A stretch of 64,000 nt of DNA from Neodothiora populina (taxonomy: Eukaryota), in NCBI RefSeq assembly GCF_041146345.1, contig NW_027191413.1:2604001-2668000 (forward strand), read 5' to 3'. Made by a program: the position numbers and the translations under genes. The number at the start of each line of letters is the position of its first letter. The first letter of the stretch is position 1. The notes under the pieces are model-generated. The model did not search any database. It was not told where the DNA came from and saw nothing but the letters and a program-made list of their open reading frames with translations. Shown here piece after piece: positions 5,415-27,300 of the stretch.

Positions 5415-8028
5415 TCATACCTGCACTTCTCCATTCCTGCGATCTCTGGCCATCTTGCCAACCCCAGACTTCTGCATTGCATGGTCGTACCCACCCTCAG
5501 GGCTGCCTCTCTGCACAGTCCTGATTTTGGCAAAGTAAGCGGCTCGAGCATCTGGCTCCGGCTCGCAATCTTCCGAAGCATCCGTATAGGTCTCCCAGTT
5601 TTCCGAGCCTGAGACCGCCGAATTGGAAGTCATGACCGAGGATGTGTTTGAGATCTGTCGAGACATCGCTGGTGGCGGTGCTGGCGGGTAGTCGAACCTC
5701 GAAACAGGTATGGACATAGGTGTAGGGTAGTTGCTGAGCTCAGACGGAGCTCTCGAATGTTGGCGATATTCAGGCATCGAACGCAACGACTCATTGTCAC
5801 CGTAAACGTCTTCAGGATCAACGTGCCGCACTATACTTGCGCTACGTTCACCCATGTCGGCGTAGTTGATAGGTGTGGGTGTGGGAGGCATGTAAGCATC
5901 CTTCATCTTAGGTGCAGGCCCACGAGGCGGGCCCATCAGACCCCTTGTGCTGGCCTTGAAATCCTCTCGGCCGTGACCGACGATAGCAGGACGCGGACGC
6001 CGCTCGGGCGAGTTGTTGCCAAGGGGCATACTACTGAGAGGTGCCCTGGGCGGCATTGCTGGAATTTTAGACGGACTGCCCCTCCCAGATGGAGGAGCTG
6101 CCCTATCATGTGCGGCGATGGACGCACTGAAGTTGATGCTTGCAGCGGATGGAGGTCTAATTGATGCGCTGCCAGGATTCCGTACGCTGGTGGGAGTGTG
6201 GGACCTTGGAGGTGCAGTACCACGAATCGTGCCGTTGCGACTCGGAGGTGGAACGGTCCTTGCAACTTTCGATTGCGTAGTGGATGGGGGGAGGTTTGGC
6301 GTCTTAGATCGTGGTTGTGTCATCCCGGTCATGGATGAGTCTGGTAGTTCGTCTAGATAACGCTCGCCATGAACGAGGAAAGGTCGTCCATACTCGTCCT
6401 CCCAGCGCTCGAGAGTAGCACGCAGGTCAGCTTCCACTTTAGGCAGGTCTTTTGCAATGCGCTTTCGCATCTTCTCCTCGCGCAGGAGGCGTGTTGGGTC
6501 CCGTTTTTCTCCCTTCTGGCCTCGTGCCATCAAACGTGAGGCATCCTGTGATGAAGCAGCAAGATCATTACGATCTTTGATTAGTGAACGGTGTTTTTCT
6601 ATCATAAGGAGGGTAGGAGCCCGTTGCTCTTTCAGAGCTTCTAGACGAGCAATCTCAGCCTCGTGGGCAGAGAGCAAAGCATCGGAGTATACATCTGTTT
6701 GATTGGTGCAGTTAGCATGTCGTTGTTACTATTTGGTAAATAAGCGAGCTCGGATCTTGATGTTGACGTACCGGAAAATGCGGGGGTGAAGTCGAGCATC
6801 TCTTCTTCAGAAAAGTAAAGAGCGTCCCATAACTCTTGTAATTTGAAGCGAGCATCCTCAACAAAGAGATGCAAATTTTGTCGCTTTAGCTCGTTAAGTC
6901 GCGCGAGTTCATCTTCAAAATCATTGATCGCTCTCATGCCGCATCCGCGGGCTTTCATCAAGAATGCCTTCGACTCGGCCTCTTCCACCCCCAATTTCTG
7001 CCACAGAGCTGCTACGGTTTGTCGCAGATCTTTGAGTCTTCGCTCACGATCACGCTTCTCCTGCAAAAGCTTTTCTTTGCGTGCTCTCAACCTATTCAAG
7101 TCATCCTCGTGCAGACCGAGTTGCTCAGGTGCTTCTTTAGCGCACTCTACGATCTGACTGTCTACTTGTGCCTGAGGCGTGCCAAGCTCACCCCACAACA
7201 AGATGATGTCCTGCGCTAGCTGCTGTACAGTGACAATGCGTTTGTTATACTCATCATAGACACGCGAAAACTCGTCGTCAAGGGCAGCTACATATGTCGA
7301 TGAAAGATCGAAATTGGGTGCAAGTTTTGCGTTGGGAGAAGTAGGTGGTAGCTTGACCGAGACGAAGGATGGTTCCAAGTGTGATGCATATGATCGAAGG
7401 GCTTCAGCAAGTTCTGTTTTCTAGTCAGTAAATATGTTCGCTCTGGCAAAGCCCCTGCCAGGGCAAATGAGTAGGCGGGCGCGCACTTTTGACTTGCTCA
7501 TAGCGTTCGCGATGTAGTCTTGCGACTGCATGATGCTTCTCCTCGAGTGTTTGAATACAGGGAAGAAGAGGTATAGTAACCTGAAGTTCACCGCTTCCGA
7601 TATCATCTTCAAGGCGGTATTCAGTGTCATCTAGTGCGACTTCCATCTGTCGAATGGATTTTATGAGACGATGCGCCTCCTCTGTTAAGTCATGTTTCTC
7701 ACTGCATGTGATAGTCAGCTAATTTGTTGTTGCGTCCATGTCGCTGGAACTCGACATCTAATTCTCGACTTGACCCACGTTGCGACTAGCTTAAGTTGGT
7801 TATGTAATGTTTCCGATAATGCAGAAAAAAGCTACAGCTAAATGTCAGTTGGGCGATCTCGAATCATCAGTCATTGGGATGTCGAGTTGAACATTCCACT
7901 CGAGGTTGCTCACTAACCTCTGATTCTCGCGAATCCCTCTCATGATTGGGTAATCCGATCTCATCAAAATAGCTGTGCAGCTGATTTATGATGCTCGTAA
8001 CCTGTTGCGAGAGATATCCCGTATCCAT
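5415..8028 (-). CDS. ASE1: Microtubule-bundling protein, Ase1/PRC1/MAP65 family (multi-exon)
   Basis: Start MDTGYLSQQVTSIINQLH at 8028; exons in ORFs 7425-7646, 6641-7378 and 5415-6677; motifs LQELWDALYFSEEE and RDPTRLLREEKMRKRIAKDLPK. The 3' end is uncertain because the stop lies in a GTATGA donor-like site, so a last small exon is possible. Confidence 0.88.
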
Positions 8029-11000
8029 TCTGTTCAAGGCCTGCTAGCAGCGTAGCGAATTACCACTGTTAACACCTCGGATGGGATTGTGGTGTTGGAG
8101 TTGTGGAATGAAACGGTAACGCTTGCGCTCCGCGACTTCTGGGAGAGAGGCGGCACAGGCAGTGAAAGATTCAAGTCGCGTGTGACGCCGATACTAACGT
8201 GGTCAAATATGGCAATGTGTAAACGCTTTCGACAACAAACGAGGGTATGTGTATTTCATGTAACTCGCATTGATCTGGATACACGTTAAACATCTCAGGT
8301 AAAGCAAGCTGCAGTGGCAGACACAAAGCCCCAACGATGGCGACTGTTTTGAAATCTCAAGCGTCGTCAGGGCAACAAAGCCATCGCGCATCAACTACAG
8401 ATCTTCTCCATGGAAATCTCCCGCGATCCCACTCTATCTGACACCTAAAAGCTCGATGCTTACTCTGGAGTACTTTACCAACCTTGTCCCCGGACTCTTA
8501 TGCAGGCACTATAATCGATCTCTCTATGGTATGGCCTCGCCAGTACCTTCAGGTTGCCCTAAGCAGACACAGCGACAAAAATCAGCCTTCTAAGCTATCG
8601 CGTTGCGATGCATTATCGGTGTGCAGAACGAAGCCTCATCGAGGCTTCCACGATTCTAGATACTCAAAGGTTCGAAATGCTACATCTTGCGAAATAGACA
8701 ACCGGACTGGTAGTACATGCTGAATGCTATGGCGTCTTCTAGTATGCTGTCGTCATCGCCAGTGTAGCGATTTGGTATGCCTGGATCCGGTGAAAAGCCT
8801 CTAGGTGAGGTACCTACAGTACCTACCTCGCACCTAACATCCCCCCATCATTGATGATGTGACATCGATCATGCTACCCACCGTCCCGGTTGGAGGTCGA
8901 CACGATCATGCATCAATGCACCAATAGGGAATAGCACTGTTCAGAGAGTATAATATCAGCAGTCACTCGCTCGCCTTGCGATATAGTCTTGCGTTGCAGA
9001 CTGCGACGCGTATGGAAAGCCACTAAATCTGCATCTTGAGGACGCGCTCTCAGGCCCCTCACGCCTGTCAGTCAACATACAGCATGCAGTAGCGGCGCCG
9101 TTCATAGACGCACCTTCCACCAATTATGCGAGGACGGACATTCATACATACATTCACACCCGAATTAGTGTCAAAAGCGATAGACTCGATGTGTGATATG
9201 ATAAGTGCTACACTGGTTGTATTCTCGTATCCATTATTGTCTTGCGCCCCTGTGCCACCTGACGTGTAGCTGGATGATTGGTGTGTACACCACCTATACG
9301 GCTTCGCCTAGCTTATCTTGGCTGTGATGGGCTTTGTGCAATGATGCCGACGATTCGCCTTGACGAGTGGATCGGATGTGTTTAAGTGTTCTGAAATGCA
9401 GCTGAGATCGTACCAGGCGTTCCTGAATTAATAGGGGTAAGGTTTCTGTGCTGCTCGTTGTGTGAGGCGCTGTTATGGCTACCTTACCTGTGTAGTACAC
9501 AGCTGTACAAGGGGAACTGGTAGTGGTGGCGTGCCGAGAGGCTGTGCCTGGAAAGAAATGTCCGAATACGGACCAAGGTGCATTAGCGACGGGAAGCCAC
9601 AAAGCCACCTCGTGGGATTGGTATATCTCCAGTATCTATCTCGTCGAAGCCATACAGCAAGTCTGACAATGAGGGTTGCATGTCGGAGACACCGTTATCC
9701 AGCATTGTATTCCATTGAAGACATTTTGCCTCAACCCATGCAGCTCCTTTATCCTTCTACGCGCTCATGTATAGTCGGTATCCACACAGCGCATATGACG
9801 TTTACTACTAACAGCTTTATCACTCGCTACTTGGCGAAAATGTACGCCACTCCGCGACTTGTATCGTCTTTTTGCAACCAAAGTATTTCTTCTCGCGTCC
9901 AGCTTCAGCTGGTTGGGTTGAACGAGAACCGGACTATCATGTGGTAAGACACGACTAGCCTGCCCATCAGCTTGCATGCTTCGGAAGGTGTCGAAGATAC
10001 GTGATTCAGCAAGGGTGTCAACGGCGATGCATCGATGGAAAGCCTAGGAAGTTCTCCGTCTGTCTTCCGACGCTTCTCGCTACTCGCTACTGTATTCACG
10101 TTTGTCAGAGCTAGCGTCCGATACTTCCTCATATGCAAAGTAGAGAGTGTTCTGTATGCCGATCTCGACTATCAACCGGAGCGCGTAGCCCTTACGAGGC
10201 ATCGTGCTGAAGTAAAACAACTAAGGAGACGATCAAAGAACACGAGAGTTTTTGTGATTATCCCAGCATTTCAGTCCAGCTGAACAGCGCATTGACCAGC
10301 AGCACCGCCAGGCCACCAGCAAGTGCCTCGAAATTGTAGTGTCAGGAGGATTTCGCTTCGATCGATTGCGAACAAAGCCCATCTAAAACTATTTTCGCAC
10401 GCTCGCCGCTAAGTCCGGTGCGTTCACGTGCATGGCCGTCGGGGACGGGACTTAAAATTAAGCCAATGTTGAACCACGTCAACACCTTGTTTAAACCTGG
10501 TACCTGCATCAGTTTCTTCCTGACCCGGCAAACTGCAGACGACGGGGTCTACTGGAGTTTGTGAGTCGCTTAGCTTCAACCTAGAAATTTTGTCCGTTTG
10601 GTGGGACAGGTAAGCCGTGTTGTCTGTTTATGGCCGGCCCCCCCTTCTGTCATGTCAGAGGATGCGTTTGACCCATGTGTCGATCTCTCGGAACTTGCAT
10701 CTGATTTGAACGGCTTGTAGCAACAGCGCAAGGTGTACGAGACGCGTTAGCACCAACTCCACCAGATCCAAGTTCGAGTAAGTAGATACTTTCCATCGAG
10801 TCCGCGCCCTCTAGTGCGTCAATAACACTACGCCGAACACTCCCGTATTGAGAAAGACGCGAAGAGCAGGGATCTCTTCGCCAAGAATGAGGCGGCGTGT
10901 AGCACAAGCATCGATAAGAGATGTTGAGCTACCGAGGGATCCACATGTCCTGCAGTCTCAAAGACTAATCTTAGTGTTTCCTCTAATCATGATATCAATC

Positions 11001-11693: not shown

Positions 11694-14600
11694 ATGAGCA
11701 AGTCCACACTCCTAGCATCTATCCCAGATGCTGCAATTCCATCTGCTGCTCCTCTCGAAGCTCTTTCAACGCTGCTCGACAGTGAAACGGGCACGTGGCC
11801 TACTTTTGATTTGCTTTGCTGTTATACGAGATTTTGGAAGCAATTGCCCGAGACCGCCAAAGCTGGCAAATCTTACGAGCATGCCGAATTGTTAGAACGT
11901 CTATCACATCAGATCAAAGCTACTTACAAAGGCATGCCTTCTTTGTTGCCCAATGCAGACTCGAGGAGTCCGGCAATAATCGACCCTACTGGACCAGGAA
12001 GACTAAGTCACAGAGACCTGACATCTTTCGTTCGCTCATTCAGTCTCCCTGTTCACAAAACACATGGATCGCGACCAGTGATAGCACTGGCTCTTCCTAA
12101 CGGTCCGTTAATTGGACTCGCTCTGTTAGCCGTGACCAGCTATTATGCTGCCGCACCTATGGCTATCGGTGCCGGAGGCGAACAGTTCAAGAGTGACATT
12201 CTCCAATCCGGTGCAAAGACCATTCTTGCAATTCGATCCGATATCACTCGACTTGGACTGGAAGAATCCTGGATACAGGAGAATGGCATCGAAGTCATTC
12301 TTCTCGAACAGAATGCCAACATGACATTTTCCATGTTCCGCATGGACAACAGCCCCGTTACCAAAACACAGCAACATGAGCCCAATGGACCCGACGACAT
12401 TGCGCTTATGCTCTTCACTAGTGGTACCTCTGGTACGAAGAAGAAGGTTCCTTACACCGTACACACTATGGTGGCGGGCATTGGATTCGTGATCGAGTCA
12501 TGGGGATTGACCCCTGAGGATGTCTGTATGAACATGATGCCTTTGTTCCACGTTGGTGGCATTATCAGAAATCTGTTTGCCCCCATCATGGCCGGAGGAT
12601 CTATGATCGCCTGCCCGAGCTTCGACCCTAACCTGTTCTGGGACGTTGTCGAGGATTGCCAGCCAACCTGGTACTATGCCTCCCCTTCCATGCACTCAGT
12701 CATCTTGGAAGAGGCGAAGAATCGACCCGAAGCACTCGAAAAGAGCAACATCCGTCTGATCTGCAATGCAGCTGGTGGCCTTCTGCCATCGCTGGCCATT
12801 ACGCTCCGTGATACATTCAGCTGTATCGTGTTGCCCAGCTATGGCATGACCGAGTGTATGCCGATCGCAAGTCCTCCTCTCGACTACAAGCTGGATCGTT
12901 CCGGAACATCCGGCATGAGTGTCGGACCTGAACTCGCCATCCTTGATGGTAATGACCGTGGCATGCCCACCAACCTGGTTGGTCGTATTGCAGTCAGAGG
13001 TGCCCCAGTCTTCGGTGGCTACCTCAAGGCCGATGACACGATTGATACTGCCTGTTTCCTAGATGGCGGCTGGTTCGACACTGGAGATATGGGTTACCTC
13101 GATGCCGACGGGTTCCTGTACGTGACGGGCAGAAGCAAAGAGGTCATCAACCGTGGTGGCGAATTGGTGTCACCTTTCGAGGTTGAGGAGGCACTCGTCA
13201 TTGCTGGAAGCCGAGAGGACTCACCTATATTCGGCCGTGTATCAGCTGCTCTGGCTTTCTCTATGCCCCACAAGGTCTTGCAAGAAGTGGTTGGAGTTGT
13301 GCTTGTAACGCCACCTGGCGCTAGGCGTGCCGATATCAAGACGGTGCACGCAGCCGTGGCAGGATCTCTGGAGCAGGCCAAGTGGCCTGCTTTCATTGTT
13401 TACATGGACGATCTCCCGAAGAACAACAACAAAGTCCTTCGTATTAAGCTGGCTGAACGTCTCGGCTTGCAAGAGATCACTGATGACAAGCCACTCGCCG
13501 AGCGACATTACGAAGCCATATGTCCTCCGAACAACACCGCCTTGAGCGTTCCAATTATAGGCTCGCCGTGTTCGTTTGATTACGACCATGTGTCCCGCAA
13601 AGTCTCTGAGGTTATGGGCGAAGATGTCGATGTTCATATCCGCATGGCTTCCCACGACAGTTATCCCGAAGCTTTCCTTGCTCCGCGAAAGAACTCCCTC
13701 TGGAACCCAAGCTCTGTCACTTTGCCTGTGTTTGACGAGGTCTTGCGCGAGCACCTCGATGGATACCTCATCCCGAGCAAGTTCCATTACATGGAGGATC
13801 CGTTGCCGCGTGATCATACAGGCTCTGTCGACAATTTGCAGCTCGAGGAGTTTGTCCGTAGCAACGACAACAGCGGCGCCATCGCCGGCGACTTGTCCCC
13901 TACCGAGCGTACTGTTGCCACAGTTTTCGTCAACATTCTGTCATGCGCAGCTGATGAGTTGAGTGCCGAGTCCGACTTTTTCAAGATGGGTGGAGACAGT
14001 CTGCGCGCTGGTCGCCTGCTATCTGAACTTCGTAAGGAGTTCAACATTCGACTCCCAATCAACATGCTCTTTGTGCACAGCTCTATCGGTGCGCTGGCCA
14101 GGAACATCGACGAGATGCGAGGTGATCGCGTTGACGAGAAGAACGGTAGCGGAACTGCGACCGAGGAGAGGCCTATGCAGCGAGGCTGTGAGAAGACATA
14201 CAGCTCGACCAACCCATTCCTGATGGTTCTTCAACTCTTCCCCATTGTCATCCTTTATCCTATGAAGCGAGCTCTCACTTGGACCATCTTCATGTACATG
14301 TTGACTGCGACCAAGGACTGGGTCACTACCGATACATTGGCAGGCCGTCTCTTCAACTTGATTCTCTCCCTTGGTATTGGCCGTATGGTCTCTAGGTGTA
14401 TCTTCCCTGTGGTCGGATTGGCGCTCAAGTGGATTATCATCGGCCAATATAAGGAAGGACTCCACCCCATGTGGGGACCTTATCACACCCGCTGGTGGAT
14501 GGTTGATAAGATTCTGACTGTCTGTGGCAGAGGTCACTTTGGTCTCACTGACATCACGACTATCTGGTACTACCGCCTGATGGGCGCCAAGATTGGCAAG

Positions 14601-16739
14601 AACGTCAAGATCAACCGCGCTGCGACCATTCGGGAGTTCGACCTCATCAATATCGAAGACGGTGCAAACCTTGACAAGTGTATCTGCAGAGGCTTCGCTG
14701 CTGAGCAGAACACAACCATGTTCCTTGGTAGAATCCGTGTTGGCAAGAACGCTAGTGTCGGACTGGCATCAATTGTTGCCCCAGGAACTGAATTGGCAGA
14801 TTCGATGTGCCTTGGTCCTAACTCGTCTAGCTGGGAGGCCCAGGAAGCTGCGGATGAATCCAATAGAGACCTTTCAAGCAGTAGGATCCCTGGAACGCAC
14901 AAGTTGCTCGAATTCCTCCTTATCCTTCCGATCTCTATGCTTGTCGTTTTCCTTCGCTCTGGTCCATGGATCGCAGGTCTTGTAGGACTTGTGAATGTTC
15001 AGCCTGAACCGTCGGTCGACCATGTCCGATCTATCATCGAGTGGTTCGCTCAGCCCCATCGTATTGGATATCACTACCTTGCTCTCATCCTCAATGCCTA
15101 CTTTGGTCCTATGGCCTGGTTCTTTGTCGTCTACTTGCTGAAGAAGATCCTCGATGCCAGCGTCGGAAGGCTGACGCCAGGACCTGCTGAAAGCAGAGGC
15201 AACTGGCAACGTTTCAGAATGGCTTTATTGAAGAAGATAATTCCCATGTCACAGTTCCACAAGCTCACTGAGATCTTTGGTACTCACTACGAGGTCACAT
15301 CTATCCTCTATCGTGCTCTTGGAGCTAAGATCGGCAATAGAGTTTACTGGCCTGGAACCGGTCCCACTGTCCAAGACTTCGACCTTCTCGAAATTGGCGA
15401 CAGCGTTGTCTTTGGCAGTCGTTCTCACCTAGTCACGTCTGACGGTACTGGCAGTGATTTCGTCAAGGTTAATAACAATGCTATGATCTCTGATCGTGTT
15501 GTCTTACTTCCTGGAGCTACGGTTGGCGAACGTACCGTTCTCGGAAGTGGTGCCTTGACCCGTCGTGACCGCCACTACGATTCCGATACCGTCTGGGTTG
15601 GTTCCAAGGCTGGTGAGGCAGTTTGCTTGACCTCTGGTACCCGTAGTCAGCGTAACGAGACAAGCAAACAGTCGAGCAACGAGAAGGACTACCCCAAGGT
15701 CACCACGGAGGGCCGACCGGATCTTACAGCCAACAGTTCCTCCACCACCTTGGCCGCAGGAAGAGACAGAGATATCATCACTGTGGCTTGGGAGTCCCAA
15801 GCCACTACTCCGAACATGTCCAGCAGGGTTTCTTTCGCCTCGGAGAAGGGCGCGGAGGTCGTCGTCGCATCTGACGAGCCGTCCGAGCCCAAGTCCTCAT
15901 CTCCATTCGGTCGCGCATTCTACGAAGGCAAAGCTGCCTACCGTGTGTGGGGAATGTGGACCATCTTCTTTTACTCGTCGTTCCTGACTATCTTCGTTTC
16001 GTTCTACTGGAACGTGGCGACGACGTCTTCCCTGCAAATCGTGGCAAGAGTAATCGAGTCAAACCACTACTGGGTGGCTGCTCATCACTCTTACCGCCCT
16101 CTCATGATTTACTGCCTGTTCTGCGCTTGCATTGCAGCTCTACACACGGCACAGGCTGTGGTCGCTATCGCTGCTCTAATTGGTGCCAAGTGGGCCATCA
16201 TGGGCAAGCGCACGGCTGGCAACTACGACTGGGACAAGAGCTCCTACAACCAGCGCTGGCAGCTGTACTTGGCTTGCGAGAAGCTGCGAAGACATTGCTA
16301 CGGAGGCGCCGGTATCCTCGGTCTTTTGACAGGCACTCATTACGTTGTCATGTACTTCCGCAGTCTCGGAGCCACCATCGGCAAGGATTGTGCCATCTTC
16401 TCGGGTGGTCTTCCTAGCTTGATGTTCACTGAGCCAGATCTTCTGACACTTGGAGACCGAGTCAACGTCGACGACGCTAGTCTGGTCAGTCACATCAACT
16501 CCAGAGGTGTCTTCAACCTCAACCCGCTTGTCGTGGGTGACAGGAGTGTCTTGAGATCTGGTTCGAGATTGCTTTCCGGAGCCAACATGGGCAACGATGC
16601 AGTCCTCCTCGAACACACTCTCGTTATGGCAGGTGACATCGTTGACGATGGTGCAACCTACCAAGGATGGCCAGGTGAAGAATTCGACGGGATCAGAGCT
16701 CCTATGAGCCAGAAGGCCGCGATGGCATCCAACATCTGA
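11694..16739 (+). CDS. Membrane-bound single-module NRPS-like polymer synthetase (A-T-TM/repeat x3; Pls / polymalate-synthetase type), 1681 aa, intronless
   Basis: First ATG 11694 (the ORF-track start at 11634 is TTG). A domain LFTSGTSGTKK, YGMTE, GWFDTGDMG, GRSKEVINRGGE, LPKNNNKV; carrier domain DFFKMGGDSL; three repeats YRLMGAKIGKNV / YRALGAKIGNRV / FRSLGATIGKDC, each preceded by hydrophobic helices; no canonical C, TE or R domain. Confidence 0.9.
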   Translation: MSKSTLLASIPDAAIPSAAPLEALSTLLDSETGTWPTFDLLCCYTRFWKQLPETAKAGKSYEHAELLERLSHQIKATYKGMPSLLPNADSRSPAIIDPTGPGRLSHRDLTSFVRSFSLPVHKTHGSRPVIALALPNGPLIGLALLAVTSYYAAAPMAIGAGGEQFKSDILQSGAKTILAIRSDITRLGLEESWIQENGIEVILLEQNANMTFSMFRMDNSPVTKTQQHEPNGPDDIALMLFTSGTSGTKKKVPYTVHTMVAGIGFVIESWGLTPEDVCMNMMPLFHVGGIIRNLFAPIMAGGSMIACPSFDPNLFWDVVEDCQPTWYYASPSMHSVILEEAKNRPEALEKSNIRLICNAAGGLLPSLAITLRDTFSCIVLPSYGMTECMPIASPPLDYKLDRSGTSGMSVGPELAILDGNDRGMPTNLVGRIAVRGAPVFGGYLKADDTIDTACFLDGGWFDTGDMGYLDADGFLYVTGRSKEVINRGGELVSPFEVEEALVIAGSREDSPIFGRVSAALAFSMPHKVLQEVVGVVLVTPPGARRADIKTVHAAVAGSLEQAKWPAFIVYMDDLPKNNNKVLRIKLAERLGLQEITDDKPLAERHYEAICPPNNTALSVPIIGSPCSFDYDHVSRKVSEVMGEDVDVHIRMASHDSYPEAFLAPRKNSLWNPSSVTLPVFDEVLREHLDGYLIPSKFHYMEDPLPRDHTGSVDNLQLEEFVRSNDNSGAIAGDLSPTERTVATVFVNILSCAADELSAESDFFKMGGDSLRAGRLLSELRKEFNIRLPINMLFVHSSIGALARNIDEMRGDRVDEKNGSGTATEERPMQRGCEKTYSSTNPFLMVLQLFPIVILYPMKRALTWTIFMYMLTATKDWVTTDTLAGRLFNLILSLGIGRMVSRCIFPVVGLALKWIIIGQYKEGLHPMWGPYHTRWWMVDKILTVCGRGHFGLTDITTIWYYRLMGAKIGKNVKINRAATIREFDLINIEDGANLDKCICRGFAAEQNTTMFLGRIRVGKNASVGLASIVAPGTELADSMCLGPNSSSWEAQEAADESNRDLSSSRIPGTHKLLEFLLILPISMLVVFLRSGPWIAGLVGLVNVQPEPSVDHVRSIIEWFAQPHRIGYHYLALILNAYFGPMAWFFVVYLLKKILDASVGRLTPGPAESRGNWQRFRMALLKKIIPMSQFHKLTEIFGTHYEVTSILYRALGAKIGNRVYWPGTGPTVQDFDLLEIGDSVVFGSRSHLVTSDGTGSDFVKVNNNAMISDRVVLLPGATVGERTVLGSGALTRRDRHYDSDTVWVGSKAGEAVCLTSGTRSQRNETSKQSSNEKDYPKVTTEGRPDLTANSSSTTLAAGRDRDIITVAWESQATTPNMSSRVSFASEKGAEVVVASDEPSEPKSSSPFGRAFYEGKAAYRVWGMWTIFFYSSFLTIFVSFYWNVATTSSLQIVARVIESNHYWVAAHHSYRPLMIYCLFCACIAALHTAQAVVAIAALIGAKWAIMGKRTAGNYDWDKSSYNQRWQLYLACEKLRRHCYGGAGILGLLTGTHYVVMYFRSLGATIGKDCAIFSGGLPSLMFTEPDLLTLGDRVNVDDASLVSHINSRGVFNLNPLVVGDRSVLRSGSRLLSGANMGNDAVLLEHTLVMAGDIVDDGATYQGWPGEEFDGIRAPMSQKAAMASNI

Positions 16740-21363: not shown

Positions 21364-22599
21364 ATGGCGCTCTACAACAACTCAGTGCTCAATGTGACAA
21401 ACACAGCGACCCCAGATCCATATGTGATTCACGCAAATGACAACTATTTTCTAGTGAGTAGTACTGTATTTGACCTTCGGCAATTGTTACTGAGAAGTGG
21501 ACAGACCTTTACTGCCGGCGATAGAGTCGAGATCTGGTGCGCAGACAGTCTTCTGAATTTTAACGACCGATGTTCAAAGCATGTTGTGTGGTAAAGCTAG
21601 CCTCAGGCATCTAGATAGGTACCCAGTTCGGGAGCTGACACGTTCGTCATTATAGGCGTCCTCCACCAGACACAGACTACAGCAACGATGTCTGGGCTCC
21701 AGAGCTGCACAGGCTGCAGGGACGATGGTACATATATGTTGCAGCATGCAATCCACACAAGGGCAACAAGTCTCATCGAATGATCGTCCTCGGTGGACCA
21801 CCAGCTTACCAAGACCCCGTACAAGGGCCATGGGAGTTCTTAGGACCAATTCGAGACATGGATCAAAGGCAATGGGCCATCGACGGCACCGTCATCGAAC
21901 TCGATGGCCAGATGTACTTTGTCTACTCTGGCTGGCCGTTTGACAATCCGAACGAGTCAGATCTCATACAGAGGCTGTTCATCTTGCGATTAAGTGATCC
22001 AATCACCGCGAGCTCTCCAGCTGTTGAAATCTGTAGACCAGCTGAACCATTTGAGCGTACAGGCGATCATCATATCAACGAAGGTAATTTTCCCCCTCAT
22101 GTACGTTAGGTCCTCGTTGAGGAAACATGAAGTTAATCACTCCTGAGTAGGACCCCAATATCTGGCAAGCCCAGATGGCTCATGGAGGGGCATTGCCTAT
22201 AGCTGCTCGGGAAGCTGGACCAATGAATACAAAATGAATACATTACGGTTCCGTGGCGGTGATCCTCTGAACCCCGGAGCATGGGGGAAGAGCATGAATC
22301 CGCTCGTCCAAACCGGGACGAATGGCAATGGACCGTGGGGCCCTGGTCACGGTTCTTTCATGCATATCGGAGACGAAACCGTAGCTATCTATCACGCAAC
22401 AGACGGCCCCAGCGATGGCTGGAACAACAGAAAGGCAAGGATGCAGAGAGTTGTGTTCAATGATGGTGGACCTTTCATGGGAGGGGGCGTGGGTGTTCTG
22501 ACAGACGTGCATACTTTCATGGGTGCTGACCATGGCTCGGAATCACACAGCAGCAAGAAGCATGGCATTAAAGGTCTGCTTCACAAGTTGCTGGACTAG
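21364..22599 (+). CDS. Glycoside hydrolase family 43 (arabinofuranosidase/xylosidase-like), no signal peptide
   Basis: Motifs PDPYV, VWAPELH, WAIDGTV, INEGPQ, GPGHGSF, IYHA; introns ~21454-21504, 21591-21655, 22084-22150 with GT..AG ends. Confidence 0.87.
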
Positions 22600-24379
22600 A
22601 CTTGAAATGAGTTAGGCTATCCTACAGACTTCCAAATATCGGGCGACCGGCTTTCTCTTGCATAAAGGCTCAAATTCGGCATGTCTAAGATACTAAGACA
22701 TTCTACGCAAGGGAAGGATTGCTTTTACAATTGAGCAGCCGACCGGCCACCAGCCACCTGCCACCTTATTCCCTGCAGTCCGAAAGTGCTGGATCTAGAC
22801 GCACGCGGTATTGACATATGAAGCCGCATACCATCCAATTGAACAGATGAAAGCAGCATCTTCTGACAGGAGATGACAGTCGTCCGCTTTGGGATCGCAT
22901 CCATCTTCACACGTTGTTTCCGCTTCCTCTTCGCTTCTGAGCCCGGTAACCCACGGCCATGTAGCCATCTGCTGTGGAGCTGCTCATTAACTGCAATAGG
23001 AAAAACAAGGTGTATACGCAGAGGTACTGTGTAGTACGTTTCTCCCATGCTAGCTGATTGTGTGCCTGGCAATACAATTTCAGACCGTTTCGCAACGGTT
23101 TACCCAAATCCACGGCGACACCCCCGGCAAATTTTGCCTTGCCGAGTGGTGACATGGGTGGCGAAGTCGCTGCTGAATAAACGTGTCTAGCAATCCTGCC
23201 CAGGACGGAGATTTTCTTGCAGGGATTAAGTCTGGAAGAGATAAAACAGATGGGGATCATAGATGTTAGTAGCAACGTCGCTTGTCTGTAGAATGCCTAC
23301 TGACTTGCATCTACTTTTGTGACTGGGGTTCGATCGCCAAGAACTAACTGTTCATTCCCCTGTCGGTACCCCACGAACGACAATTCTCACATTTCACATC
23401 AATTGGCAGCTTCATGTTGTCAAATTGTTTGTAGTCAACAACATGATAGTCTTTAAGTCCAGTAGTCATTTATTGATCAACGCATTTTATGTTGCTTCCC
23501 TCGCAAGGTCTAGTTAACGTCGGCACAACGAGCCTATTTCATGCCGGAAGTTTCAAGCTAGAGCCTCGTGCCAAACGAGGCGAGCCCAGAACTCACATAC
23601 AGTACGTGAGCATCTGTGAGCTCGAGGCAACACACAGTGTGCATGCCAAATAGTTTTTCAAGACATCAACGCTGGAAGTGTCCACCTGACCGGTCGGAAC
23701 CACCTCTCAGCAACGTCACCAAAGCCGAAGTTTCTGCATGGTCTTTCCGTCACATTTTAAAGGATTAGAGACAGGCGCCGTTGCATGCAACGGGGACATG
23801 AGCCGCACAACGTCCAGCAACGGAAGACTTCTCGGCGCCGGGCGTGGTCCGGATGATGGTCATCTACAACATACCATGACTACGATTCATGGTCTCAAGG
23901 CCTCGGCTGCCGCATCATGCAAGGACATAGCTGATGTGCATATCAGCGTGGTCATTGCCACAGTTTTCAACATGCTATTGCCAGGAGTCGACATGATCGG
24001 ATGCTGTGTATAATAAATCCACTATTGGTAGGTACTCATGGCTGATGGTATCTCTACACATGATTGACATGTTGTTTCTGCCTCGTCAATCGTAAAACCG
24101 GAGTATCAGTGGTCGCCGTTACAACAGTATTGAATGTCTTAAAGCAGCCTTGGTCTTCCAACCGGAGAACATCGACCTTTATCAAAGTCGGTCTTCAATC
24201 TAATTCAAACGTAGTAAGTACTGCGTTCAGCCTGGAACGCTATAGCACCCAGGTGGGTATCGGCTTCTTTAAGTGTAGTCATGACGCTCGTAAGTCTGCG
24301 TAGATCGTTCACCTACAAATCCACGATGCCCCTTGAGTAGTTCCCTCCATCGTTCGTTCGTTTGCCCTGTAGCGAGCAC

Positions 24380-27300
24380 ATGAACTACAATATGTCTTTC
24401 AGGAATCAATTTATGAGGGAAAGCCCTCTGGAGGTGTTGGCTGAGCATGACGATGACCTTATGCAAGTCCGATCTGAAGATATCGGACCTATGGATGCTA
24501 GATCTTCTGTTTCGACCGATGTATCAACGACATCCAAATCACACAACCGCTCCAACTCAATAAGCACACGCAACTTCAGTGCGCCATCCTGGTCCGACCG
24601 GTATCATCGCAAGTCTACATCAATGGAGGCACCAAGGCGGTTGATTGGAGGAACCACAGCGGCGATTGACTTTGCAAGAAGATCAAGCACAAGTTCAGAT
24701 GAAATCGATTCATTGGCTCCCGAAGACTCTCACAGACACTCATCAAGCACCAGAAGAGCATCTACTGCCTCGGTATTGTTTTGTACAGGCCGTACGGGTC
24801 AGCATAAGAACCAGCGGAGCCGTGGCGATTCCGTAGCGTCTATGGCATCTATCCCCGAAGTCGAGAAAACACAGCCTCGCCAATCAATCTCCGTTCAAAA
24901 CGTAGTCATACCAGCATCGCTTATCAGACACATGGAGACCTCATGGGCACAAGAGAAACCCACGAAGAGGAAGGATTCGTCTGCGCCTCGAAATGATTCG
25001 GAGGGCAATTTTGATGTTGCAGCCATAGCTCGTGAACAACAACGTGAAGTCGAGAGCGCAGTTGCTGGCGCCGTCATCGCCAGTGACAAGGACCTTGAAG
25101 CATCGGAGCTCGAGAGATACGACACCAATGACTCCTCGATAGATCCTGCAATGGTTTCCCAGAAAAGCTCGTTCGAGAAGGAGCCGAGACGGCCGGAGCC
25201 TGTGTACAACAAGCGTAACGGAGGTCTTTTCGGCGATTTCTCGTTCACTCCAGGACAAAAACAGCAAGAGGAAGACGAAAAGTCAACGATAGGAAGCATT
25301 CCTGAAGCCCATACCCGCAAGGCATCCAGACTTCCGAGCCTTTGGCGAGCGCCTACTGCAGGGACTATGAACAGTTCAAGAAGGGGGACCATCTTCGAAC
25401 GAACCGTTTCCGCATTAGAAGATGTGGCCGAAACAGTCCGCAGAAGTACGATGTGGGATATATACGAGAACGCCAAAGTACGGCAAGTAAAGCTGCAACG
25501 CAAGCGTTGGGTTCAGCTGTTGTTTCAGTACTCTGTGTACACATTCATCGTGGCGTTTATATATCTGGTGCTTGTTGGACTGCCTCTCTGGAAGGGCGCA
25601 GTCTACTGGTTCTGGTACGCCTTCTCGCACAAATTCGCAGTACCTGGATCATGGGCCGTGGTGATCGGAGTTGCCTTTGTGTAAGTCTTCCCTCGCGTTA
25701 TACCGAGTGTTTGACAAATCTAACTTGACAATAGTTATGCATACACGCCACTACTCATCTTATTCGAAAAGGACCCGCCAATGCCCGAAGATCTGGATAA
25801 AATTGACGCCACGAAAACCCCTGGAGTGCAAGACTGCGCCTTGATGATTCCTTGTTATAAGGCTGCAACATTAATCGGCCCAACCCTCGAGGCAGCTACT
25901 AAGATTTTCCCACCCTCGCATATCTTCGTAATCGCCAATGGTATGTACCAAGCTGTGTGTTGGTGGTTTTTGTTGTCTCTAACACCCAACTAGGTAACAG
26001 TCCGACGCCCCTCGACAACACGGAGGAAATCTGCGATAAATATGGTGTCAACCACATCTGGAGTCCTGTAGGATCCAAGATTGTGGCGCAGTTCGTGGGC
26101 TGCCATGCCATGAAGGGATTCAAGAATGTTCTTCTGATCGACGACGACTGCGCGCTGCCGCCTAATTTTCCCATCGTGACAGACCGGATGACGGACCGGA
26201 TCAAGTGCATAGGTTACACGATCAAATCCGTCGGTCCTAATTCGACCCCAGGCACACTGTGCCAACAATCGCAAGATTTGGAGTACAAGCTAGCAGGATT
26301 ACAACGAGCCCTTGCAGGCAAGATCGGCTCAGCGACGTTCCCTCACGGTGCCATTTCCTTGTGGGATCGCGATTTCCTCGTTCGCACCTTCAACGAGCAC
26401 CCTGGTTTCAGTGTGTCCGAGGACTGGTTCTTCGGTCACGTTGCAAGAGAGCAGGGATCTCGCATCACCATGTGCACATCCGTTTTCATCGAAACCGAGA
26501 CCCCAGACGCTGTCTTCTTCAGCTCTGGCGGAGAAAGAGGTGGTTTCGGTGAAATGACAGTCTTCAAGCAACGATTCCTACGCTGGAACTTTTTCTTTGT
26601 CAATGGCATGTACTACAACCTTATGTATATCCTGACATCTTGGAAACTGGGCTGGTGGGAATTGGGTGCCAAACTCTTCGTCTTCCAGGAGACGTACGAG
26701 TCACTACTCTGTAAGGTTGCTTCTTTGCAATTGTGCTGCCAACGCTGACGAAAGCAGATATTTTCACTCCATTTGTTTTGCCCATTTCACTTGTCGTGCG
26801 ATACCAGTTCACCCTTGAGCTTCTGGCTGGTACATTCGGCTTGTACTTTATCAACATTGTCATATTCAATGAGATCCACTTACGACTAAAGGGCGAACGC
26901 GTCGGTTGGAAATGCGTATATCTCTACTACATGCCATACAAGTTCATCATGAGTTTGGTGAATGTAGCCAGTTGCTACTGGGCCATATACAAGTACGCGA
27001 CATACTTCGCCAAACGCCACGCTAAAATCATCGAAGACGACAAAGCGGTCAATGTCGTTCTTCAGCTCGAGGAGAACGGTACTGATAAGCAACGTCTGGG
27101 CCGTCGCATGACCGTCACAGCCATTGGAACACAAACCGAGTTGGCCACCAGCTCAGAGCCTGGAGCTCGCAGAGTCACAGTCACCACCCTCGGATCACGC
27201 CTTGCCGAAGCAGAGCCTCTGAAAGAGGACACCTTCGTACTCGAAAGAGAAATGTCCATGTCTCGCATGCCTACGTTGACGCTTGTCACGTCGCGCATGT

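What the first reader, a model, noticed from the sequence alone, without database searches (positions are those of the whole stretch)
11694..16739. Stand-alone membrane NRPS-like polymer synthetase with a dicarboxylate-ligase-type A domain (candidate poly-malate or new polyester synthetase)
Seen: intronless 1681-aa ORF with A domain, phosphopantetheine carrier (GGDSL) and three TM-anchored 'R-x-L/M-G-A-x-I-G' repeat domains, with no C, TE or R domain. Established: this is the architecture of epsilon-poly-L-lysine synthetase (Pls), and a similar enzyme is reported as the poly(beta-L-malic acid) synthetase of Aureobasidium. The A domain (PLFHVGG, PTWYYASPSMH, SYGMTE) resembles oxalate-CoA ligase/Pcs60-type acyl ligases more than amino-acid A domains. 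Inference: the monomer is a small hydroxy/dicarboxylic acid and the product is a secreted polyester. The flanking genes are housekeeping (ASE1, LCB2), so the pathway may be a single gene. If the host is not a known PMA producer, this is an undescribed polymer capacity.
Basis: partly seen in the sequence, partly recalled or inferred. Interest (0 to 1): 0.8.

Follow-up and report, generated by a model that had tools for sequence, protein, structure and literature searches.

The report
Polymalate synthetase orthologue in a fungus
This fungal gene is the counterpart of the known Aureobasidium enzyme that links malic acid into a biodegradable polyester, and relatives with the same substrate pocket occur in many fungi, algae and some bacteria, so this ability may be more common than reported.

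Summary
The 1681-aa ORF and its domains are as described. It is the single-copy orthologue of the Aureobasidium polymalate synthetase (PMAS), not a new polymer synthetase. The four published PMAS knock-out primers map in order onto the gene in locus L010 (0-2 mismatches). That protein is 64% identical over its full length and matches at 38 of 38 pocket and catalytic positions checked. It has the same upstream neighbour, ASE1, and sits in the sister clade (support 1.0). The A domain is closest to oxalate-CoA ligases but lacks their oxalate-binding residues and the Asp of amino-acid A domains. Two things were not found in the papers searched. First, a second A-subdomain lacking its catalytic Lys resembles that of Pls/PosA, which suggests a Pls-type protein that gained a whole acyl-CoA ligase. 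Second, an 11-residue pocket signature is identical in 227 of 236 relatives from asco- and basidiomycetes, chytrids, green algae, diatoms and bacteria. Product and expression in this host are untested. Verdict: new member of a known kind.

The parts
11694..16739 (+). Polymalate synthetase (PMAS) orthologue, 1681 aa, uninterrupted ORF, single copy in the genome
11694..11933 (+). N-terminal helical extension (residues 1-80), function unknown
   Evidence: model; 49% identical to L010 over residues 1-90
11964..13148 (+). Adenylation core (91-485), oxalate-CoA-ligase-like fold with a changed pocket (H286 G288 G289 R292 N358 A359 G384 C388 M389 P390)
13149..13478 (+). First A-subdomain (486-595) with the catalytic Lys580; CoA-ligase type
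   Evidence: K580 in 235 of 236 relatives; profile hits the genome's own oxalate-CoA ligase L002 at E 1.6e-11
13566..13868 (+). Second A-subdomain (625-725), Pls/PosA type, without the catalytic Lys (probable relic)
   Evidence: model; profile hits 3 of 3 Pls/PosA subdomains at E 1e-12 to 2.5e-10, L002 only at E 0.15; Lys at the equivalent place in 9 of 236
13899..14120 (+). Carrier (T) domain, Ser769 at 13998-14000
   Evidence: Ser in 233 of 236
14220..14843 (+). C-terminal repeat 1: helix pair plus left-handed beta-helix
14895..15629 (+). C-terminal repeat 2: helix pair plus beta-helix
15636..15887 (+). Poorly conserved, probably disordered loop (1315-1398)
   Evidence: pLDDT below 50; 20% identity to L010
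15903..16703 (+). C-terminal repeat 3 with His1600 (16491-16493), candidate catalytic base
   Evidence: His in 235 of 236 relatives and aligned to a His in repeat 3 of 3 of 3 Pls/PosA proteins
5415..8043 (-). ASE1 gene (several exons), divergent upstream neighbour; marks synteny with Aureobasidium, not part of the pathway

Best explanation
The protein is a membrane-bound poly(beta-L-malate) synthetase, orthologous to Aureobasidium PMAS. Shown here: the domains, the orthology and an unchanged pocket. Taken from papers on the Aureobasidium gene: knock-out removes polymalate, and the proposed route is malyl-AMP, then malyl-S-phosphopantetheine, then ester bond. Inferred: (1) the A core and first subdomain adenylate L-malate; replacing the oxalate-binding Ser and His by Ala359 and Pro390, and His216 by Gly288, makes room for a four-carbon acid, while invariant Arg292 and Asn358 could hold the free carboxylate and hydroxyl; (2) malate is loaded on Ser769, primed by a separate Sfp-type PPTase that the genome encodes; (3) the three beta-helix repeats fold into one pseudo-trimer like a sugar O-acetyltransferase and transfer the acyl group to the 2-hydroxyl of malate, with His1600 as probable base; (4) the six helices anchor the enzyme and may pass the chain out, which would explain the lack of a TE domain.
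For: Primers designed on the characterised gene (GenBank MN551082, PMC9909216) match L010 in order with 2/27, 0/23, 0/17 and 1/22 mismatches; the first primer also matches the window at 12483 with 3/27. Window protein against L010: 1082 of 1681 residues identical, 38 of 38 chosen pocket and catalytic positions identical. ASE1 lies divergently upstream in the window and in 2 of 2 long Aureobasidium-type loci. Tree of 58 proteins: window clade plus Aureobasidium clade support 1.0, Myriangiales next at 1.0. Single copy. Gene length 5046 bp against 5049 bp reported. The genome's own stand-alone ligase L002 keeps the oxalate residues, the window protein does not. C-terminal model: 5 of the 7 Foldseek hits at E below 0.001 are sugar O-acetyltransferases. 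AASDHPPT-type PPTase in the genome. In bacteria a PPTase gene follows the relative in 6 of 7 loci scanned.
Against: The characterised sequence QHD40385.1 was not retrieved; the link is through primers, and L010 is 1690 aa against 1682 implied for the characterised gene. PMAS function rests on genetics: the enzyme has not been isolated and complementation restored only a third of production (review passages). 36% of residues differ. The Crz1-type site CAGCCAC lies about 90 bp upstream in L009 and L010 but is absent from the 3650 bp upstream in the window; only one GNGGCKCA match 2.4 kb away. The gene is conserved in many fungi not named as producers in the reviews read. Fold hits for the C-terminal part are weak (E about 4e-4, covering one repeat). 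Pocket roles come from alignments, not from docking.
Confidence: 0.72

Rival explanations
1. The enzyme activates malate but mainly transfers malyl or short oligomalyl groups to a cell-wall sugar or lipid. Bulk free polymalate would be an Aureobasidium speciality due to high malate flux and Ca/Crz1 induction.
For: The C-terminal repeats resemble sugar O-acetyltransferases. The family is wide although few producers are named. A review says fungal polymalate is found embedded in membranes and is probably branched and bound to polysaccharides. PMAS knock-out changed pullulan size and yield. The proximal Crz1 site is missing here.
Against: The same C-terminal domain polymerises amino acids in Pls and PosA, and the repeat-3 His is shared with them. 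Knock-out removes free polymalate in A. pullulans.
Confidence: 0.15
2. The enzyme has shifted to another small hydroxy or dicarboxylic acid (tartrate, glycolate, citramalate, oxalate) and makes a new polyester.
For: Closest solved structures are oxalate-CoA ligases. No assay exists for this protein.
Against: 38 of 38 pocket and catalytic positions equal those of L010. Ser289 and His319, which define oxalate ligases, are replaced. Oxalate has no hydroxyl to form a polyester (general chemistry).
Confidence: 0.08
3. It is a Pls/PosA-like synthetase of a cationic amino-acid polymer.
For: Homologous C-terminal domain, 22-33% identity to proteins annotated as Pls/PosA family.
Against: No Asp for the alpha-amino group: the three Pls/PosA proteins read FD where this one reads FH. 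The A-core profile scores Pls/PosA at 13 bits or less against 266 for the oxalate ligase. The family A cores form their own clade apart from Pls (support 0.998).
Confidence: 0.02

Closest known systems
Polymalate synthetase PMAS of Aureobasidium melanogenum ATCC 62921 (QHD40385.1 / MN551082; Wang et al. 2020, seen only through reviews and PMC9909216)
   Same: A, T and a six-helix membrane domain without TE; 64% identity to the primer-identified gene L010; same pocket; same upstream gene; sister clade; near-equal length.
   Different: Host is a different Dothideales lineage, nearer Delphinella. About 37 residues shorter at the N-terminus. Proximal Crz1 site absent. Downstream neighbour differs from L009. 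Reviews place the six membrane helices at the N-terminus; here they follow the T domain.
[quoted passage not shown]
   Same: T domain followed by three helix-pair plus beta-helix repeats; repeat-3 His; the second A-subdomain resembles theirs.
   Different: Below the family cut-off; A core of the acyl-CoA-ligase type without the amino-binding Asp; about 350 residues longer; ester rather than isopeptide bond (inferred).
Oxalate-CoA ligases AAE3, Pcs60 and LsOCS (PDB 5IE3, 8AFF, 6QJZ)
   Same: Best sequence and fold match for the A core and first subdomain (27-29% identity).
   Different: Ser289, His319 and His216 are replaced; the domain is fused to a carrier and a membrane polymerase; the genome has a separate true oxalate ligase (L002).

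Membership tests
PMAS (Aureobasidium polymalate synthetase) | A-like, T and C-like membrane domain, no TE | tested here: met
PMAS (Aureobasidium polymalate synthetase) | Orthology to the characterised gene | tested here: met
   primer mapping, 64% identity (54), ASE1 synteny (33), tree (74, 95), single copy (13, 87); QHD40385.1 itself not retrieved
PMAS (Aureobasidium polymalate synthetase) | Same substrate pocket and catalytic residues | tested here: met
   38 of 38 positions identical to L010
PMAS (Aureobasidium polymalate synthetase) | Six transmembrane helices | tested here: met
   six long helices in three pairs in the model; hydropathy 1.4-2.1, 4 of 6 above 1.6
PMAS (Aureobasidium polymalate synthetase) | Activates L-malate; needed for polymalate production | not testable with these tools
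   needs an assay and a knock-out or complementation
PMAS (Aureobasidium polymalate synthetase) | Crz1 sites in the promoter (a reported regulatory trait, not an enzyme feature) | tested here: inconclusive
   CAGCCAC about 90 bp upstream in L009 and L010, absent here; one GNGGCKCA 2.4 kb upstream; no chance control was run
Pls/PosA amino-acid polymer synthetases | TIGR02353 above cut-off | tested here: not met
   200 bits against 423
Pls/PosA amino-acid polymer synthetases | Amino-acid A domain with conserved Asp and Glu | tested here: not met
Pls/PosA amino-acid polymer synthetases | Three membrane-anchored beta-helix repeats after the T domain | tested here: met
Oxalate-CoA ligase (AAE3/Pcs60) | Ser289 and His319 of the oxalate pocket | tested here: not met
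   Ala359 and Pro390 here; kept in the control L002
Oxalate-CoA ligase (AAE3/Pcs60) | Stand-alone soluble enzyme of about 520 aa | tested here: not met
   1681-aa fusion

The most novel reading that the evidence does not exclude
PMAS is one studied member of an old, wide family of polyester synthetases that arose when a whole oxalate-CoA-ligase-like enzyme replaced the amino-acid A core of a Pls-type polymerase, leaving a Lys-less second subdomain. Because the pocket is nearly invariant, many ascomycetes, mushroom-forming fungi, chytrids, green algae, diatoms and some bacteria (Novosphingobium, Kitasatospora, myxobacteria) would make polymalate or malylated polymers unnoticed. The small bacterial synthetase-PPTase pairs would offer a tractable system, and the family gives a search image for the long-sought Physarum enzyme.
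Probability: 0.4. Interest if true: 0.68.

Novelty: new member of a known kind. Interest (0 to 1): 0.4.

Why it matters
For this genome alone it adds one more probable polymalate producer among the relatives of Aureobasidium, which is a modest result. The wider value is for people working on polymalate, a biodegradable drug-carrier polymer whose synthetase has not been isolated. The analysis gives a domain map, candidate residues to mutate (Arg292, Asn358, Lys580, Ser769, His1600), a model of ester formation by a beta-helix acyltransferase pseudo-trimer, and a list of fungal, algal and bacterial relatives with the same pocket that could be easier to express.

Tried and rejected
Retrieving QHD40385.1: not among the listed cluster members (at most 15 of 126 and 15 of 52 members are listed per call) nor in the supplement of PMC11905612. 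Expression: no RNA holder listed; the one run laid is probably DNA and covered 8 of 30 bins, so nothing follows. A scan of prokaryote genomes with the window protein found no relative; the bacterial query found 4 full-length and 2 A-domain-only loci. The A-core tree (19 sequences; L004, L007 and L052 dropped because the cutting motif was not found, L051 badly cut) does not resolve the family as sister to the oxalate ligase (support 0.54); that closeness rests on similarity scores only. The reverse test of the second-subdomain idea was weaker: a profile from only three Pls/PosA subdomains did not hit the window protein significantly (E 0.63); among 236 relatives its best hit scoring 8 or more lay in the second subdomain in 65, in the first in 11, unclassified in 31, and 129 scored lower. 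The same stretch also matched linear gramicidin synthetase, so it may be of general NRPS type rather than specifically Pls. A biosynthetic cluster was looked for and not found: 14 other window ORFs scanned gave housekeeping or unrelated families or nothing. The ESM Atlas returned only unnamed Hexapep clusters. The 50%-representative search gave unnamed hits and was not analysed further. Earlier findings were not available. I did not try to name the host species. No Physarum sequence was searched, so the Physarum idea is untested.

Full report
Observation. The window holds an uninterrupted 1681-codon ORF at 11694-16739 (+). Pfam finds AMP-binding (92-444), a phosphopantetheine carrier (740-803) and a hexapeptide repeat, and nothing else. 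The Pls/PosA terminal-domain model matches three times but at 200 bits, under its cut-off of 423. The three repeat motifs are at 961, 1207 and 1556. The gene is single copy in a 24-Mb genome; the next match is a stand-alone 34% identical ligase, L002, and the C-terminal part matches only itself.

Identity. Of 8000 candidates scored, 716 matched; the 120 listed include a Delphinella cluster at 76%, Aureobasidium at 64-65%, Myriangiales at 55-56% and many other ascomycetes and two chytrid genera near 50%. Reviews state that a 5049-bp NRPS-like gene of A. melanogenum ATCC 62921 with A, T, a C-like part, six membrane helices and no TE is the polymalate synthetase. I could not fetch that sequence, so I used the knock-out primers that PMC9909216 designed on it. 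All four map in the right order and orientation inside the homologous ORF of locus L010, with 2 of 27, 0 of 23, 0 of 17 and 1 of 22 mismatches; the next-best sites have 4 to 11. L010 is 99.8% identical to an A. pullulans protein. The same paper reports that the knock-out strain's product is free of polymalate. The window protein is identical to L010 at 1082 of 1681 residues, with 58-79% in each folded domain after the N-terminal extension. ASE1 is the divergent upstream neighbour in the window, L009 and L010; the downstream gene of the window was not found in the 10 kb downstream in L009. In a FastTree tree of 58 proteins that I chose from about 270 held, the window protein's clade is sister to the Aureobasidium clade (1.0) with Myriangiales next (1.0), which fits the accepted relationship of these orders (recalled). 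This is an orthologue. One loose end: L010 has 1690 codons against 1682 implied by the published length.

A domain. Best matches by sequence and by fold are oxalate-CoA ligases. PMC8905533 names Ser289 and His319 as the residues specific to oxalate ligases. In the alignment these fall on Ala359 and Pro390, and His216 on Gly288. The genome's own ligase L002 keeps all three, a useful control. The Asp that binds the amino group in Pls and PosA is absent. So the monomer is probably neither oxalate nor an amino acid. All 38 pocket and catalytic positions that I chose are the same as in L010, which points to malate. The roles of Arg292 and Asn358 are inferred from conservation only.

An extra subdomain. 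The model of residues 1-820 (mean pLDDT 87) shows two small A-subdomains before the carrier, at 486-595 and 625-725. Profiles from a 42-sequence alignment separate them: core and first subdomain hit L002 (E 1e-82 and 2e-11) and barely hit three Pls/PosA-type proteins, while the second hits all three Pls/PosA subdomains (E 1e-12 to 2.5e-10) and not L002. The catalytic Lys is kept in the first (235 of 236) and mostly lost in the second (9 of 236). The simplest reading is that a complete acyl-CoA ligase took the place of the amino-acid core in a Pls-type protein. Against full confidence: the reverse profile was weak on the window protein, the stretch also resembles other NRPS subdomains, and the A-core tree did not resolve the sister group.

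Polymerase part. The model of residues 840-1681 (mean pLDDT 85) has three helix pairs, each followed by a run of short strands, and one disordered loop. This matches the model described for PosA: three left-handed beta-helices packed as in sugar acyltransferases. Foldseek hits are weak but consistent: 5 of 7 hits under E 0.001 are galactoside or maltose O-acetyltransferases, 2 a designed protein. His1600 is present in 235 of 236 relatives and aligns with a His in repeat 3 of all three Pls/PosA proteins. A His base in this fold family is recalled, not tested. I infer ester formation at the repeat interface and release through the helices.

Family range. A search seeded with a 33% identical bacterial relative listed members named from Novosphingobium, Kitasatospora, Acidimicrobiales, Myxococcales, Coccomyxa, Mesostigma, diatoms, a pelagophyte, a chytrid and many Agaricomycetes. 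Across the 236 proteins (best-scoring lists, so biased to close relatives), an 11-position pocket signature is identical in 227; 6 differ only by gaps and 3 by one substitution. In bacteria a PPTase gene follows the synthetase in 6 of 7 loci whose downstream ORF I scanned. No neighbour that I scanned pointed to the monomer.

Literature. I saw passages of PMC9210645, PMC11286673, PMC11905612, PMC9909216, PMC10751350, PMC10522769, PMC7179176, PMC8905533, PMC8403587, PMC10989895 and PMC10864419, the whole supplement table of PMC9909216, a term search of the supplement of PMC11905612, and a term search of PMC6941272 with no hit. I did not see Wang et al. 2020, Qi et al. 2021 or Rathberger et al. 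1999, only their titles in reference lists; they may already describe the spread of PMAS homologues or more producers. Producers named in what I read are Aureobasidium, Physarum and Penicillium cyclopium. Searches listed no paper on the wide distribution or on the doubled subdomain; the library lacks most subscription journals, and I judged most listed papers by title and abstract start only.

Verdict. The feature is real and most likely a polymalate synthetase (0.72). Interest 0.4 rests on the family-level points, a nearly invariant pocket across kingdoms and a probable chimeric origin, both testable with ordinary expression and assay work.

Noticed in passing
P0035, P0046 in the tree: Chytrid proteins (Geranomyces, Thoreauomyces) fall inside the ascomycete clade (1.0) and group with Trypetheliales and Capnodiales-type sequences (0.97), while another chytrid (Zopfochytrium) lies outside: possible gene transfer from a dothideomycete.
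   Followed up: partly
P0070, P0050 in the tree: A Dactylellina and a Xylariomycetidae protein sit among Hortaea, Zasmidium and Fulvia sequences (clade support 1.0): transfer, hidden paralogy or contamination.
   Followed up: no
P0211, P0224, P0227 and other Mycena, Favolaschia and Crassisporium proteins: Many agaric members carry added RING-type zinc-finger Pfam hits (PF00097, PF13639, PF13920; family names recalled), and Mycena species hold several copies.
   Followed up: no
L024, L026, L031, L036: Bacterial synthetase-PPTase pairs lie beside transposase, integrase or pSAM2-type replication genes, suggesting mobility.
   Followed up: partly
L047:3293-5932, also L048 and L049: In three Novosphingobium genomes an 880-aa ORF with no Pfam match and a two-component pair lie directly upstream of the synthetase.
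   Followed up: no
L032-L044: Intron-rich relatives at 28-60% identity per exon in 13 metagenome contigs with shared exon layout; lineage not determined.
   Followed up: no
L009 and L010, about 90 bp upstream of the start: A reverse-strand CAGCCAC site is conserved in position in both Aureobasidium-type loci and missing in the window.
   Followed up: partly
G000:C18:141632-143011 (L002): Stand-alone oxalate-CoA ligase with the oxalate pocket intact; my longest-ORF translation lacks a normal C-terminal end, probably because of an intron.
   Followed up: partly
L057:5697-7334: A fumarate hydratase gene follows a Pls/PosA-family gene in Azospirillum thermophilum, but that protein has an amino-acid-type A domain, so the link to malate is probably chance.
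   Followed up: no
window 21780-22599 and 24341-25684: A GH43 glycoside hydrolase gene in pieces (exons) downstream of the aminotransferase gene, and a 447-codon open frame with no Pfam match.
   Followed up: no
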